From Escherichia phage SM_W22, in the sequence record PP920555.1: DNA of 44,245 nucleotides; one strand, 5' to 3'. The position numbers and the translations under genes were made by a program. Each line of letters opens with the position of its first letter. Within the stretch, counting starts at the first letter, position 1. Below, piece after piece: positions 6,374 to 39,868 of this stretch. The notes under the pieces are model-generated. The model made no database searches. It was not told the origin of the DNA and saw only the letters and a program-made list of their open reading frames with translations.

Positions 6374-6401
6374 CTTGTTTACCTTCATATCTCTGTTGGT
6401 G

Positions 6402-6424
6402 TGCAACCAATATATGCAACCAAT
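6402..6424. promoter_or_regulatory. Two direct copies of TGCAACCAAT motif in divergent intergenic region
   Basis: TGCAACCAAT at 6402-6411 and 6415-6424, between minus moron start (6373) and scaffold start (6528). Confidence 0.4.
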
Positions 6425-25379: not shown

Positions 25380-25403
25380 TTGCAACCAACCTATTGGTTG
25401 CAA
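25380..25403. promoter_or_regulatory. Palindromic pair of TTGCAACCAA motifs
   Basis: TTGCAACCAA-ccta-TTGGTTGCAA perfect inverted repeat; third partial copy TTGCAACG about 10 bp downstream. Confidence 0.45.
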
Positions 25404-25917: not shown

Positions 25918-26403
25918 TCAACGATTAAGATATTCAAGGAGTTCTCCTTCGCTCATTATTTCAATTTGTGCGCTGCCGATGGGCGGCGCTTCGTCAAATA
26001 TTATCAATTGCTGGCATTTGTTATTGCTCGGCCCGACTTCACCGGTGACGGCGTGAATGAATCTAATCCGCCAGTCCAGAAGAATTATCAGGTTTGCAGT
26101 CTTCCGGGCCATCCTCGCCCACTTCGTCGACGTGTCCTGATTCAGCAGCATGACAGTCCGGCGTCCGTGCGCCGCGCACTCTACCCACGGCAGCGGATCG
26201 GAATACGGCGGATTGCACCACTTCCACCCTTTCAACTCGGACCAGTCCACATCAAGCGCGCTATGTTCTGCTGTGAAGTAACGCGGTAGCAGGTGGTTGG
26301 CATCGCTTGCCGCCATATCGTAACGGAATCGGTATTTCCGACGAAGCGGTTTGAATAAAGCTGGCGGCGTGCGCCAGCTATCTTTTTGCTCACTCTCCGT
26401 CAT
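25918..26403 (-). CDS. DNA N6-adenine methyltransferase (phage Dam family)
   Basis: WRTPPALF near N-terminus and NPPYS catalytic motif; track ORF trimmed to Met at 26403 giving a 14-nt overlap with upstream gene. Confidence 0.75.
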   Translation of the reverse strand: MTESEQKDSWRTPPALFKPLRRKYRFRYDMAASDANHLLPRYFTAEHSALDVDWSELKGWKWCNPPYSDPLPWVECAAHGRRTVMLLNQDTSTKWARMARKTANLIILLDWRIRFIHAVTGEVGPSNNKCQQLIIFDEAPPIGSAQIEIMSEGELLEYLNR

Positions 26404-26854
26404 TCTGCGGGTCCAGTGCGTAAAGGGCAATCTTTTCGCCTTTGCCTCGGGTAAGTACGCGCTGGACCCGCGCCATCTCATCCTTGCCAAGAGGTCGGCA
26501 ATCGGAATAGTAGCTGCCGTTCGCACGCCACGCTACCAGCACCAGGTCTTTCCTGTCGATCGAAGACCGGCGACCCTTCGGGCGCACGTATTCCTCGGCC
26601 CGTTTGCAATGCTCGCGCAGGCCGTCGGCGGTGATGCGGTTTAGCGCAACGCTGGTTGTGTATCCGGTGCGCTGCATAATCCCCATCAATTCGAAAAGTA
26701 GTTCGAAGCGCTCCTCTATCTCCTGGCGCACTTTCTTCTCGCCTTCGTATAGCGCCTGGTTGGTGTCCGCCAGCGCGCTGACGCGTTCGACCTGTTCGCG
26801 GGCTTCGAGGCATTGCGCGGCCCAGTAATTTTTCTCTTCTTGTAAAATTTTCAT
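26390..26854 (-). CDS. Hypothetical protein (coiled-coil N-terminus)
   Basis: 154 aa ORF; no motif recognised. Confidence 0.5.
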   Translation of the reverse strand: MKILQEEKNYWAAQCLEAREQVERVSALADTNQALYEGEKKVRQEIEERFELLFELMGIMQRTGYTTSVALNRITADGLREHCKRAEEYVRPKGRRSSIDRKDLVLVAWRANGSYYSDCRPLGKDEMARVQRVLTRGKGEKIALYALDPQNDGE

Positions 26855-26908
26855 CGTGTTGTCTCCAGGTATTAAAAAAGGCGTCCAAACCGGACACCCT
26901 TAAGATAA

Positions 26909-26935
26909 TGCAACCAATATGATTATGCAACCAAT
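26909..26935. promoter_or_regulatory. Two direct copies of TGCAACCAAT
   Basis: Copies at 26909-26918 and 26926-26935 in intergenic gap upstream of minus gene starting at 26854. Confidence 0.4.
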
Positions 26936-27253
26936 TTACGCATAAAAGTTCGGGTCGCGTGCGACGTCTACCAGGTAAAGGTTGCTTATGCGGTTGCCGT
27001 AGTGCCCTGGAGTGCGCTGGCGGCACACAACGGCGAAGCCTGGAGGGATTGTATTGCCCGTCTCAATAATCCACGCCACGCGTGCGCCAGACAGCGTCTT
27101 GCCGTTGTATTCGATACGTGTTCCGCCATCGGCGGTATTGAGGTTGCCAATTTTGCAGCCGGTGGACTTCAGACGAATGACGCCGGTTTTGCTGTCGTAG
27201 GAGAATAACTGGTTAGTCATTGCAACCGAAAAATCGATGGCTTCGAATGTCAT
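26936..27253 (-). CDS. HNH_3-like domain protein (possibly catalytically degenerate)
   Basis: GNRISNLYLV matches the NNRIENLRLV-type C-terminal HNH signature; expected upstream D-H replaced by R-Q. Confidence 0.4.
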   Translation of the reverse strand: MTFEAIDFSVAMTNQLFSYDSKTGVIRLKSTGCKIGNLNTADGGTRIEYNGKTLSGARVAWIIETGNTIPPGFAVVCRQRTPGHYGNRISNLYLVDVARDPNFYA

Positions 27254-27960
27254 TTTAAATTTTCCTCGTTAACCGCTATCGCGAAGCCGCGCGGAGTGAG
27301 CGACCGGATTAATTTTGTGCGGGCTGATTTGCCTCCGAGGCGACTATACTGCTTCGAGTACCCTTTTTCAACGAATACAGGCTTTTTCTCTGGCATACGA
27401 AAGCCGTTGCCGGTCCATAAGCAGGTCCGCTTCGGATATGAATCGCGCGCGTTGATGTATTCCGGGAACAACGGGTGCACGTCATCCTCCGGCAGATAGC
27501 CGCCATACTCCCACGGATCAAACGAGTGGTCTGGCTTACGCCACTGTGTGGAAAGCACACTGCGCGGATTCTCAATCATATACGGCACTTCGAAGAAGTC
27601 ACCCAGGTAAGCTGCGATCTTCGCGGTGCGCACCGCCTTAAGCTGGAAGGCCGGGTCTTTAGCACGCTTGCGCGGGAAAGCTGGCGCGCCGCTCACTGCC
27701 AGATCCGTACACGGGGGGAAAGCATAAATGATATCCGGCGTACCGAAATCGCCATTCATCGCTCGGTCCACGAAGTCCAGATCGATAAACTCATTGCGAT
27801 ACCGGATCCCGCGACCATAAATCCGGTAGTCAAGGTATGACCCGTGATCAGCTTCGGAGTAGTTAAAACAGTAGCACTTATGCCCCATCTCGGCAGCACG
27901 CTCAATCATCAAGCCGCTGCCGTCAAACAGTGACCAGATTGTCATTTTCGCAATAGTCAT
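27250..27960 (-). CDS. DNA (cytosine-5)-methyltransferase-like protein, short form
   Basis: Motif I-like LFDGSG, motif IV-like FPPCT (PC catalytic Cys), motif VI-like ENP, motif IX-like RSLTPRGF; only 236 aa so target recognition region minimal. Confidence 0.5.
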   Translation of the reverse strand: MTIAKMTIWSLFDGSGLMIERAAEMGHKCYCFNYSEADHGSYLDYRIYGRGIRYRNEFIDLDFVDRAMNGDFGTPDIIYAFPPCTDLAVSGAPAFPRKRAKDPAFQLKAVRTAKIAAYLGDFFEVPYMIENPRSVLSTQWRKPDHSFDPWEYGGYLPEDDVHPLFPEYINARDSYPKRTCLWTGNGFRMPEKKPVFVEKGYSKQYSRLGGKSARTKLIRSLTPRGFAIAVNEENLK

Positions 27961-29647: not shown

Positions 29648-29821
29648 TTATTTTTGCTCTGCGCGGTAGCGGCGCTGCCGTTCGCGCTCTTTTTTATTGC
29701 GGCACGATTTGCACTCCGCCCGATACCCGTCCGGGCTACGCGCAGTCTTGCCGGTGTATTTGTGGAACTGGGATAGCGGTTTAACGCAGCCGCAATTACT
29801 GCAACGTTTTTCTTCGATCAT
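29648..29821 (-). CDS. Zinc-ribbon protein (CxxC...CxxC)
   Basis: 57 aa from Met with GAGGA RBS; CSNCGC...ECKSC motif similar to N-terminal Zn modules of phage nucleases. Confidence 0.45.
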   Translation of the reverse strand: MIEEKRCSNCGCVKPLSQFHKYTGKTARSPDGYRAECKSCRNKKERERQRRYRAEQK

Positions 29822-36727: not shown

Positions 36728-37057
36728 ATGAATATCAAAGAAGCAATTGAAGTGTTATCTAATGCAATCCGCGGCGAAGCGGGTAAATCCTGGTATTACA
36801 CAAATGCGGTGGATACTCTGTTATTTGAAGTGTCCAGATTATCGCGTGCTGAGAAGGAGCTTACCGCGAAGCTGGAATTGCTCAACGGCACGGCAGCAAG
36901 CAAGCTGCAAAAACACAATGAAGAAATGGAAGAATACAAAAAACAGGTTATCCGTCTACGTGAGGAAGGTAAATCCTGGGCGATGATTGCCGAGTTGACC
37001 GGAATTAATCAGAGCACAGTGCGCTCCTGGGTACGCAATAATAAAACTTCTAAGTAA
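36728..37057 (+). CDS. HTH DNA-binding protein (putative transcriptional regulator)
   Basis: 109 aa; C-terminal helix-turn-helix-like segment SWAMIAELTGINQSTVRSWV; first gene of rightward operon; RBS CAGGAGA. Confidence 0.55.
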   Translation: MNIKEAIEVLSNAIRGEAGKSWYYTNAVDTLLFEVSRLSRAEKELTAKLELLNGTAASKLQKHNEEMEEYKKQVIRLREEGKSWAMIAELTGINQSTVRSWVRNNKTSK

Positions 37058-39804: not shown

Positions 39805-39844
39805 ATTGGTTGCATCCGTGCCAGCACCCTGCTATATTGGTTGC
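39805..39844. promoter_or_regulatory. Two direct copies of ATTGGTTGCA upstream of 39869 gene
   Basis: Copies at 39805-39814 and 39835-39844, 30 bp apart; a further GCAACCAAT at 39714-39723. Confidence 0.4.
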
Positions 39845-39868
39845 ACATCAACATGAGGACTGAACAAA

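What the first reader, a model, noticed from the sequence alone, without database searches (positions are those of the whole stretch)
26936..27253. HNH_3-like protein lacking the canonical catalytic His
The C-terminus GNRISNLYLV matches the conserved HNH_3 signature, but the upstream D-H pair that supplies the catalytic histidine is replaced (VCRQRTPGHYG). It could be an inactivated homing endonuclease remnant, a DNA-binding adaptor or a variant active site.
Basis: partly seen in the sequence, partly recalled or inferred. Interest (0 to 1): 0.4.

Follow-up and report, generated by a model that had tools for sequence, protein, structure and literature searches.

The report
Catalytically dead HNH-like phage protein
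A small, strongly conserved core gene of Dhillonvirus coliphages encodes the front part of an I-HmuI/HNH_3-type homing nuclease that has lost its catalytic Asp-His pair and its metal-binding helix. The database label 'HNH endonuclease' is therefore probably wrong, and the protein most likely only binds DNA.

Summary

In 89 canonical relatives the positions H57, D76, H77 and R93 are 87-89/89 conserved. This protein has A, V, C and Y there, plus a 2-residue insertion (G83-H84) in the loop. The chain ends 3 residues after N102, so the model has no core alpha-helix.

It is not a decaying remnant. It is present in 157 phage records (156 carry a Dhillonvirus-type terminase) and dN/dS is 0.06 (0.04 over the degenerate motif).

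Best reading (0.55): a domesticated, non-catalytic DNA-binding module. A variant active site using the conserved loop His/Tyr, as in PacI, is not excluded (0.2).

Side finding: the motif TTGGTTGCA occurs 11 times (0.9 expected), almost only in intergenic DNA. A tandem pair abuts this gene's stop codon in four divergent lineages. Whether this protein binds the motif is untested.

Ordinary-to-moderate interest; new variant of a known kind.

The parts
26936..27253 (-). ORF of 105 aa (stop codon included): degenerate I-HmuI/HNH_3-like protein. It is 100 % identical to the orthologues in phages bob, JLBYU37 and Opt212.
27263..27267 (-). Shine-Dalgarno GAGGA, 9 nt upstream of the ATG. The ATG overlaps the TGA stop of the upstream Dcm-like gene (ATGA, 27250-27253). 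This overlap is conserved in L005-L020.
   Evidence: read from sequence
27089..27205 (-). Residues 17-55: N-terminal antiparallel beta-sheet (strands 17-19, 26-28, 44-49, 52-55). It corresponds to the N-terminal sheet of I-HmuI and carries the family signature Y19, T23 and G24 ('YDxxTG').
27059..27088 (-). Residues 56-65: helix 'GARVAWIIET'. The family's 'HR.AW' is 'AR.AW' here (H57 to Ala). This is the only stretch that Pfam HNH_3 still matches.
27023..27028 (-). Codons V76-C77 at the end of beta-1. They occupy the position of the catalytic Asp-His (D74-H75 of I-HmuI).
26999..27007 (-). Codons G83-H84-Y85. G-H is a 2-residue insertion in the loop relative to all 89 canonical relatives. 'GHY' is conserved in Dhillonvirus, L020, eiAU and P0006.
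26978..26995 (-). Codons N87-L92 'NRISNL': the retained HNH_3 signature (loop Asn and start of beta-2). It is followed by Y93, where the family has Arg.
26948..26950 (-). Codon N102. It aligns with the metal-binding Asn at the start of the core helix, but only 3 residues follow and the model shows coil there.
26908..26935 (-). Two direct copies of ATTGGTTGCAT, 17 bp apart, starting at the base after the stop codon. Together they read as a sigma-70-like promoter TTGCAT-17-TATCTT with the second copy inside the spacer. The 11-mers are conserved across Dhillonviruses while the 6-nt spacer varies.
26874..26901 (-). 10-bp GC-rich hairpin plus U-run (-14.5 kcal/mol) between the tandem motif and the RBS of the next gene. 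Compensatory changes are seen in L017, L018 and L020.
27250..27960 (-). Upstream, translationally coupled Dcm-like DNA methyltransferase (PHROG_757; no Pfam hit).
26390..26854 (-). Downstream gene (154 aa, PHROG_10530) served by the promoter-like tandem motif.

Best explanation
The gene encodes a domesticated, catalytically disabled descendant of an I-HmuI/HNH_3-type phage homing nuclease. It keeps the N-terminal beta-sheet and the beta-hairpin of the His-Me finger. It has lost the general-base His, the preceding Asp metal ligand, two other near-invariant residues (H57, R93), most of the core alpha-helix, and the C-terminal AP2/HTH DNA-binding domain that its relatives carry.

It is kept as a small, slightly basic protein of the early DNA-metabolism operon (SNF2 helicase, Dcm-like methylase, this gene). 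It most likely acts by binding DNA without cutting it.

Shown: homology, fold, loss of the catalytic residues, core-gene status and purifying selection.
Inferred: DNA binding, and absence of nuclease activity.
For: Homology and fold.

Catalytic positions replaced: D76 to V, H77 to C, H57 to A and R93 to Y, against 87-89/89 conservation in canonical relatives. The same D-H column corresponds to D74-H75 of I-HmuI. The Cys at position 77 is Leu in the 55 %-identical homologue L020, so it is not a conserved replacement nucleophile.

No helix after beta-2 in a confident model, and the chain ends 3 residues after N102. Canonical relatives are 160-180 aa with AP2.

Core gene: 157 phage records carry it at >=80 % identity, against 156 records with a Dhillonvirus-type terminase (>=90 %). 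This is not the patchy distribution of a mobile endonuclease.

Purifying selection: dN/dS is 0.057 overall and 0.043 over codons 70-105.

Support for a DNA-binding role in the lineage:
- The eiAU homologue has an N-terminal I-HmuI NUMOD-like stretch (E 3e-4).
- P0009 carries a C-terminal HTH-like stretch.
- Relatives exist in which a degenerate module precedes an intact one in the same chain (P0012, P0013, P0016, P0020).

Precedent: His-Me fingers that lost the His but kept DNA or substrate binding, namely Smad MH1 and the ENPP nuclease-like domain (PMC5714182).

Charge: 11 K/R against 8 D/E (read from sequence).
Against: No experiment or computation here shows DNA binding. Its target and its biological role are unknown.

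The conserved loop G-H-Y and the retained N87, N91 and N102 could still form an unconventional active site.

The protein lacks any accessory DNA-binding domain, so its affinity and specificity might be low on its own. It could instead work through protein contacts.
Confidence: 0.55

Rival explanations
1. It is an active nuclease or nickase with a relocated active site. The conserved loop residues H84 and/or Y85 replace the missing beta-1 histidine (as the loop Tyr does in PacI), and N102 or a nearby acidic residue holds the metal.
For: 'GHY' is a subfamily-specific insertion conserved across four lineages at 37-55 % identity. H84 is also kept in P0009. N87, N91 and N102 are retained. PacI is a documented His-less His-Me nuclease that uses a loop Tyr (PMC5714182). 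Strong purifying selection on this segment (dN/dS 0.043) is compatible with catalysis.
Against: The Asp ligand before the His is V, T, R or I (not conserved). The region after beta-2 is not conserved between lineages (DPNFYA vs EDIRLDE vs EDYFNE) and is coil in the model. Y85 is Ala in P0009. There are no PacI-like zinc-binding cysteines: only C33 and C77 are present, and both vary.
Confidence: 0.2
2. It is a protein-binding adaptor or regulatory subunit, for example of the translationally coupled Dcm-like methyltransferase or of the SNF2 helicase. The old nuclease scaffold would serve as an interaction surface.
For: The ATGA start/stop overlap with the Dcm-like gene is conserved from the window to the divergent L020. 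In eiAU the homologue also sits between the helicase and two methyltransferases. In L149 it follows the SNF2 helicase. The Dcm-like protein is short (236 aa) and has no Pfam-recognisable domain.
Against: The Dcm-like protein has no tblastn homologue in eiAU, so the specific pairing is not conserved. Adjacency can be explained by conserved synteny of the replication module. There is no co-evolution or complex-prediction evidence.
Confidence: 0.12
3. It is a decaying pseudogene, or a frameshifted remnant of a homing endonuclease with no function.
For: The catalytic residues are lost and the C-terminus is truncated relative to 160-180-aa relatives. One orthologue (SSL-2009a, P0005/L019) is frameshifted from residue ~72.
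Against: dN/dS is 0.057 across 14 distinct alleles with dS about 0.56. An intact ORF of constant length is present in 161/162 records. It has a conserved SD and translational coupling. The other two frames contain no D-H motif.
Confidence: 0.03

Closest known systems
I-HmuI (PDB 1U3E) and the Pfam HNH_3 (PF13392) / His-Me finger 'group 2' homing endonucleases
   Different: It lacks the Asp-His dyad (V76-C77), H57, R93, the core alpha-helix and every accessory DNA-binding domain. It is below the Pfam threshold. It is a genus-wide core gene rather than a sporadic mobile gene. It has a 2-residue 'GH' insertion in the loop.
Phage HNH_3-AP2 endonucleases (nearest sequence relatives, e.g. P0018, P0015, P0019; 'YDPETG...AHRxAW...IDHxN...DNRxxNLR...EN')
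   Same: Collinear over residues 7-100 at 29-36 % identity. Same phage habitat.
   Different: Those are 160-180 aa, pass PF13392, keep D-H/R/N, and carry a C-terminal AP2-type domain.
Smad MH1 domain and the ENPP nuclease-like domain (inactivated His-Me fingers; PMC5714182)
   Same: These are His-Me finger scaffolds that lost the catalytic His and were retained for DNA or substrate binding. This is the mode of action proposed here.
   Different: They are eukaryotic and have no detectable sequence relationship. MH1 keeps a zinc site and a DNA-binding hairpin that has been shown experimentally. Nothing has been shown for this protein.
PacI restriction endonuclease (His-less His-Me finger using a loop Tyr)
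   Same: No His at the end of beta-1, and a conserved aromatic/His pair (H84-Y85) in the loop.
   Different: PacI has two Cys4 zinc sites, an intact core helix and works as a dimer. None of these features is evident here.
Eiauvirus gp17/'gp31' (Edwardsiella phage eiAU) and metagenomic P0006 and P0009
   Same: Same subfamily: D-H lost, 'GHY' (or 'TH') loop insertion, position next to the SNF2 helicase. They come from phages that also carry the TGGTTGCA motif.
   Different: 37-43 % identity. eiAU has an N-terminal NUMOD-like extension and P0009 has a C-terminal HTH-like extension. The Dhillonvirus protein is the bare module.

Membership tests
Pfam HNH_3 (PF13392) | Score at or above the curated gathering threshold (24.8 bits) | tested here: not met
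   13.2 bits, E 0.071, and only profile positions 5-21 of 46 are matched. The Dhillonvirus orthologues also carry no precomputed Pfam domain.
HNH_3 / I-HmuI-like superfamily (homology) | Significant profile-profile and fold similarity | tested here: met
   hhalign 99.5 %, E 5e-23. PHROG_99 E 2.6e-16. 1U3E is the only significant PDB hit.
His-Me finger (HNH) nuclease | Catalytic His at the C-terminal end of beta-strand 1 | tested here: not met
   C77 here, against His in 89/89 canonical relatives. It is Leu in L020.
His-Me finger (HNH) nuclease | Acidic or His metal ligand immediately before the catalytic His | tested here: not met
   V76, against Asp in 88/89. It is T, R or I in subfamily relatives.
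His-Me finger (HNH) nuclease | Asn/His metal ligand in the first turn of the core alpha-helix | tested here: inconclusive
   N102 aligns with the family Asn (82/89). However, the model has no helix there, only 3 residues follow, and the position is not conserved in eiAU or P0006.
His-Me finger (HNH) nuclease | beta-beta-alpha fold | tested here: inconclusive
   The beta-hairpin (73-77 and 92-96) is modelled with high confidence, but the alpha element is absent. This is a predicted structure, not an experimental one.
His-Me finger (HNH) nuclease | Loop Asn of the H-N-H motif | tested here: met
   N87 (87/89) and N91 (89/89) are retained.
Free-standing homing endonuclease | Sporadic, mobile distribution among otherwise collinear genomes | tested here: not met
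   157 records have the gene against 156 with a Dhillonvirus terminase. The position is fixed between the Dcm-like gene and the downstream promoter.
Free-standing homing endonuclease | Accessory DNA-binding modules (NUMOD, AP2, HTH) | tested here: not met
   No further domain in the 105 aa. Relatives do have them: AP2, NUMOD-like in eiAU, HTH-like in P0009.
Free-standing homing endonuclease | Site-specific nicking or cleavage of a cognate target | not testable with these tools
   Needs a nuclease assay.
Inactivated His-Me finger retained as DNA binder (Smad MH1-like mode) | Sequence-specific or non-specific DNA binding without cleavage | not testable with these tools
   Inferred only, from the fold, the net charge (+3) and the domain partners of relatives.
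PacI-like His-less His-Me nuclease | Loop Tyr substituting for His, plus structural zinc sites | tested here: inconclusive
   Y85 is conserved in 4 lineages but is Ala in P0009. There is no Cys4 zinc site: only C33 and C77 are present, and both are variable.

The most novel reading that the evidence does not exclude
The dead HNH module may be the sequence-specific factor that recognises the (A/T)TGGTTGCA repeats. These repeats overlie the -35 hexamer and the spacer or +1 region of many promoters in Dhillonvirus, Eiauvirus and related phages. On this reading a homing endonuclease was domesticated into a phage transcription regulator and still sits directly next to what may have been its ancestral target, the tandem repeat that abuts its own stop codon.

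Evidence that leaves this open:
- The motif occurs 11x in the window against 0.9 expected and 14x in eiAU against 0.3. It occurs 1x in Jerseyvirus PK1, which lacks the gene although its replication module is as similar to the window's as eiAU's is.
- A tandem pair follows the stop codon in Dhillonvirus, L020, L148 and L149.
- The gene is one of only four non-structural proteins shared by the window and eiAU but not PK1.

Evidence against:
- Conventional HTH candidates exist: the sigma-70 region-4-like protein at 36728-37057 and the Cro-like eiAU gp29.
- eiAU has no motif next to its homologue.
- All motif-positive genomes examined were found through the protein itself.
Probability: 0.13. Interest if true: 0.62.

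Novelty: new variant of a known kind. Interest (0 to 1): 0.33.

Why it matters
More than 100 GenBank records of Dhillonvirus phages label this gene 'HNH endonuclease' or 'homing endonuclease'. These phages are widely used in E. coli phage-therapy and defence-system work, for example BASEL Bas14-18. The evidence says the canonical nuclease chemistry is gone, yet the gene is a strongly constrained core gene.

This corrects an annotation that matters for safety and mobility assessments, and for interpreting defence systems triggered by phage nucleases. It also gives a clean natural example of a homing-nuclease scaffold recruited to a non-catalytic role in a virus.

If the protein turns out to read the TGGTTGCA promoter-associated repeats, it would link homing-endonuclease domestication to phage gene regulation. 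That would parallel the proposed origin of AP2 transcription factors.

Tried and rejected
- Single-sequence AlphaFold2 gave pLDDT 41 and was useless. I replaced it with an MSA-based model.
- phmmer of the protein against PDB sequences found nothing, and NCBIfam found nothing.
- Word-indexed searches with the protein or the subfamily profile returned only 5-8 proteins, so the subfamily is small. The exhaustive phmmer search gave 17 hits, and three of them (P0007, P0010, P0014) are spurious repeat-protein matches.
- Frameshift explanation: the other two frames over the motif contain no D-H. Only SSL-2009a is frameshifted.
- A partner with an intact HNH_3 domain in the same genome: none is annotated in the near-identical phage bob.
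- Methyltransferase-partner idea: the Dcm-like protein has no homologue in eiAU, so I downgraded it.
- A scan of IMG/VR for paired TTGGTTGCA motifs returned at least 120 stretches, mostly on contigs not otherwise met in this work, and could not be used for a phylogenetic profile.
- Literature: no functional study of this gene was found in Dhillonvirus papers.
- I could not relate the window's HTH protein to eiAU gp54.

Full report
WHAT IS THERE

The finding's coordinates are exactly a minus-strand ORF, 26936..27253. It is 105 aa, starts with ATG, and the coordinates include the stop codon. The sequence is MTFEAIDFSVAMTNQLFSYDSKTGVIRLKSTGCKIGNLNTADGGTRIEYNGKTLSGARVAWIIETGNTIPPGFAVVCRQRTPGHYGNRISNLYLVDVARDPNFYA.

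A GAGGA Shine-Dalgarno lies 9 nt upstream. The ATG overlaps the TGA stop of the upstream gene (ATGA), which suggests translational coupling.

The window is a Dhillonvirus (HK578-like) E. coli siphophage. The 1.6 kb around the gene matches 157 phage records. The protein is 100 % identical to those of phages bob, JLBYU37 and Opt212, and the terminase is 100 % identical to that of JLBYU37. GenBank records call the gene 'putative HNH endonuclease', 'putative homing endonuclease' or 'hypothetical protein'.

IS IT HNH_3-LIKE?

By Pfam's own criterion it is not. HNH_3 scores 13.2 bits (cut-off 24.8), and the match covers only residues 58-75, the stretch before the catalytic motif. NCBIfam and PDB sequence searches are empty.

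Homology is nevertheless secure:
- PHROG_99 'HNH endonuclease', E 2.6e-16 over residues 7-97.
- An exhaustive phmmer search reaches canonical PF13392 proteins (P0015, P0018, P0019).
- A profile of the subfamily aligns to a profile of 30 canonical proteins with 99.5 % probability, E 5e-23, over 87 columns.

With a 97-sequence alignment, AlphaFold2 gives a confident model (pLDDT 87.9, pTM 0.82). Its elements are helix 10-16, strands 17-19, 26-28, 44-49 and 52-55, helix 56-65, strand 73-77, a short turn at 84-87, and strand 92-96. After that it is coil to the end.

WHAT IS MISSING

The canonical family profile aligns to I-HmuI so that the family's 'IDH' is V73-D74-H75 of I-HmuI. From my own knowledge of Shen et al. 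2004, D74 and N96 bind the metal and H75 is the general base. The general rule is given in PMC5714182: a catalytic His at the end of beta-1, an acidic or His ligand before it, and an Asn or His in the first turn of the helix.

In 89 canonical relatives the relevant columns compare with this protein as follows:

| Position | Canonical relatives | This protein |
|---|---|---|
| 57 | H 88/89 | A57 |
| 76 | D 88/89 | V76 |
| 77 | H 89/89 | C77 |
| 87 | N 87/89 | N87 |
| 88 | R 74/89 | R88 |
| 91 | N 89/89 | N91 |
| 92 | L 89/89 | L92 |
| 93 | R 87/89 | Y93 |
| 102 | N 82/89 | N102 |

A 2-residue insertion (G83-H84) sits in the loop between the strands. [quoted passage not shown] So is the C-terminal AP2 domain that most relatives carry; they are 160-180 aa.

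The Cys at the His position is not a conserved substitute. It is Leu in the 55 %-identical homologue on contig L020.

IS IT A DECAYING REMNANT? NO.

tblastn finds the protein at >=80 % identity in 157 phage records (161 of 162 hits cover >=80 % of it). A Dhillonvirus-type terminase (>=90 %) is found in 156 records. It is a core gene at a fixed position: SNF2 helicase, Dcm-like methylase, this gene, then the Dam methylase region.

Across 14 distinct alleles, Nei-Gojobori dN/dS is 0.057 (dS 0.56). For codons 70-105, the degenerate motif itself, it is 0.043. Against the most divergent allele (L018), dS is saturated while dN is 0.11.

The only broken copy is in SSL-2009a, which is frameshifted from about residue 72.

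No other HNH_3 protein is annotated in the near-identical phage bob, so it is not the silent partner of an active paralogue in cis.

THE SUBFAMILY

Relatives that also lack D-H are:
- The Eiauvirus protein gp17/'gp31' (P0008, 40 % identity), next to the helicase and two methyltransferases.
- Metagenomic P0006 (43 %).
- P0009 (37 %).
- P0017 (40 %).

Dhillonvirus, L020, eiAU and P0006 share the 'GHY' loop insertion. P0009 keeps the His ('TH'), and P0017 has no insertion.

eiAU's protein has an N-terminal stretch that hits Pfam 'I-HmuI NUMOD-like' (E 3e-4, below threshold). P0009 has a C-terminal HTH-like stretch (E 0.044). Several two-module proteins (P0012, P0013, P0016, P0020) carry a degenerate first module and an intact second one.

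So degenerate HNH_3 modules recur, and they keep company with DNA-binding elements.

MECHANISM

Best reading (0.55): a domesticated, non-catalytic DNA-binding module. The canonical one-metal His-Me chemistry needs the beta-1 His and a helix ligand (PMC5714182). Here the His, the adjacent Asp and most of the helix are missing, while the sheet and hairpin that face DNA in I-HmuI are conserved. The protein is mildly basic (11 K/R against 8 D/E). Smad MH1 and the ENPP nuclease-like domain are precedents for such loss of catalysis with retained binding.

Rival 1 (0.2): a relocated active site. PacI lacks the His and uses a loop Tyr, and here a conserved H84-Y85 sits in that loop. Against this:
- The Asp position is hydrophobic or variable.
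- The post-beta-2 segment is not conserved between lineages.
- Y85 is Ala in P0009.
- There are no zinc-site cysteines.

Rival 2 (0.12): a protein adaptor for the coupled Dcm-like methylase or the helicase. The ATGA overlap is conserved, but the Dcm-like protein has no homologue in eiAU.

Rival 3 (0.03): a pseudogene. The selection data refute this.

A LEAD FOUND ON THE WAY

Directly after the stop codon lie two copies of ATTGGTTGCAT, 17 bp apart (26908-26935, minus strand). A 10-bp hairpin with a U-run follows (-14.5 kcal/mol), then the RBS of the next gene.

In 15 further Dhillonvirus-like loci the two 11-mers are conserved (a few carry single-base differences) while the 6-nt spacer between them varies freely. 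The hairpin shows compensatory changes.

The 11-mer (up to 1 mismatch) occurs 11 times in the window against 0.92 expected, and 0 of 100 shuffles reach that count. Of the 12 sites listed, 11 lie wholly or largely in the 10 % of the window that is non-coding. The 9-mers carrying it (GCAACCAAT / ATTGGTTGC) are the most frequent 9-mers in the window and in phage bob. The core TTGGTTGCA occurs 14 times in Edwardsiella phage eiAU, with 0.3 expected. It occurs once in Jerseyvirus PK1. PK1's helicase and polymerase are as similar to the window's as eiAU's are, but PK1 lacks the HNH-like gene.

Several pairs read as sigma-70-type promoters, TTGCAT-17-TATATT, with the second copy in the spacer or over the -10/+1 region. 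That is an operator-like layout.

In two further divergent lineages the HNH-like gene is again followed, within a few bases of its stop, by a tandem AATGGTTGC(A/G) pair 12 bp apart (L148 for P0006, L149 for P0009).

The HNH-like protein is one of only four non-structural proteins shared by the window and eiAU but absent from PK1. The others are Dam, a 57-aa Lar-like protein and a DUF6378 protein.

This makes the protein a candidate reader of the motif, but only a candidate, for three reasons:
- The window also encodes a 109-aa protein with a sigma-70 region-4 / HTH_23 domain (36728-37057), and eiAU has a Cro-type HTH at the syntenic place.
- eiAU has no motif beside its homologue.
- Every motif-positive genome I examined was reached through the protein itself, so the association is partly circular.

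I put this reading at about 0.13.

COMPARISON AND NOVELTY

The protein works like an inactivated His-Me finger (the Smad MH1 mode). By descent it belongs to the I-HmuI/HNH_3 lineage. It fails the defining features of an HNH nuclease (catalytic His, Asp ligand, Pfam threshold) and of a homing endonuclease (mobility, accessory DNA-binding domains). It should therefore not be filed as a member of either functional class.

I found no paper that discusses this gene. It is a new variant of a known kind. It is useful mainly as an annotation correction and as a tidy example of nuclease domestication in a phage. Its interest rises only if the link to the promoter-associated repeats is confirmed.

Noticed in passing
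window 6401-6424(-), 22512(-), 25380-25403 (inverted pair), 26908-26935(-), 36526(+), 39713(-), 39805-39846(+), 40541(-): The motif ATTGGTTGCAT (core TTGGTTGCA) occurs 11 times with up to 1 mismatch, against 0.92 expected, and almost only in intergenic DNA. It often comes in pairs that overlay a TTGCAT-17-TATATT promoter. It is the most over-represented 9-mer here, in phage bob and in Edwardsiella phage eiAU (14 copies), and is nearly absent from Jerseyvirus PK1. It is probably the operator or promoter element of an unidentified phage regulator.
   Followed up: partly
window 26874-26935 (-); L005-L020, L148 600-700, L149 3580-3680: A tandem motif, then a hairpin with U-run, then an RBS directly follow the stop codon of the HNH-like gene. 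The repeats are conserved while the spacer varies, and the hairpin shows compensatory changes. The same layout (tandem AATGGTTGC(A/G), 12 bp apart) follows the homologues P0006 and P0009. The predicted transcription start would fall inside the left arm of the hairpin. Read-through transcripts would then terminate while transcripts started at the promoter would not.
   Followed up: partly
window 36728-37057 (+): This 109-aa protein is annotated 'DNA recombination nuclease inhibitor gamma' in phage bob and 'transposase' in PHROG_9366. It actually hits Sigma70_r4_2 (29.1 bits, above threshold) and HTH_23. It is a small sigma-region-4-like DNA binder next to a divergent promoter region, and a conventional candidate for the factor that reads the -35-containing motif.
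   Followed up: partly
window 27250-27960 (-): The 'Dcm-like C5 methyltransferase' is only 236 aa and has no Pfam hit at E<0.01, although PHROG_757 'DNA methyltransferase' matches at 2.9e-84. FxGxG-, PC- and ENP-like motifs are visible by eye, but there seems to be little room for a target-recognition domain. Its stop overlaps the start of the HNH-like gene.
   Followed up: no
window 26390-26854 (-): This 154-aa ORF is labelled 'DNA ligase' by PHROG_10530 and in some GenBank records, but it has no Pfam support and is far too short for a ligase. It is probably an annotation artefact. In Oekolampad and bob the region is split into two or replaced by different small ORFs (77 % identity over only 95 aa), so this slot is variable.
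   Followed up: no
L019 / P0005 (Escherichia phage SSL-2009a): The orthologue is frameshifted from about residue 72 (…IPPALPLCAVSARQAITATG…). This is either an old sequencing error or the only naturally disrupted copy among 162 records.
   Followed up: no
window 27245-27253 vs L005-L018: The window, bob, JLBYU37, Opt212 and EP23 lack two codons after the ATG (MTF… instead of MNT(T/A)F…). This gives 105 aa instead of 107 aa.
   Followed up: yes
proteins P0012, P0013, P0016, P0020: These two-module proteins have a degenerate HNH_3-like first copy (D-H replaced by SF, LF, AH or MH) and an intact second copy. This suggests that degenerate modules can serve as DNA-binding or positioning partners of an active module.
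   Followed up: no
phage records MG065648.1 (Campylobacter phage A144), GQ502199.1 (Sodalis phage SO-1), and the Acinetobacter and Salmonella entries: These records are attributed to non-E. coli hosts but carry this gene at 95-96 % protein identity; over the 1.6-kb region A144 is 89.5 % identical at the DNA level. They look like Dhillonviruses, so host mis-attribution or contamination of these records is likely.
   Followed up: no
window 29648-29821 (-): This 57-aa protein (Lar-like restriction alleviation / Endo VII-like zinc-ribbon hits in PHROGs) is conserved in eiAU (62 % identity) but absent from PK1. It is another small candidate nucleic-acid binder in the same operon. Weak copies of the motif lie just upstream (29864, 29876).
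   Followed up: no
proteins P0007, P0010, P0014: Long repeat proteins (HYR-like or fibronectin-like repeats) scored E 1e-15 to 1e-4 in the phmmer search through many short repeated stretches. These are compositional or repeat artefacts, not homologues.
   Followed up: yes
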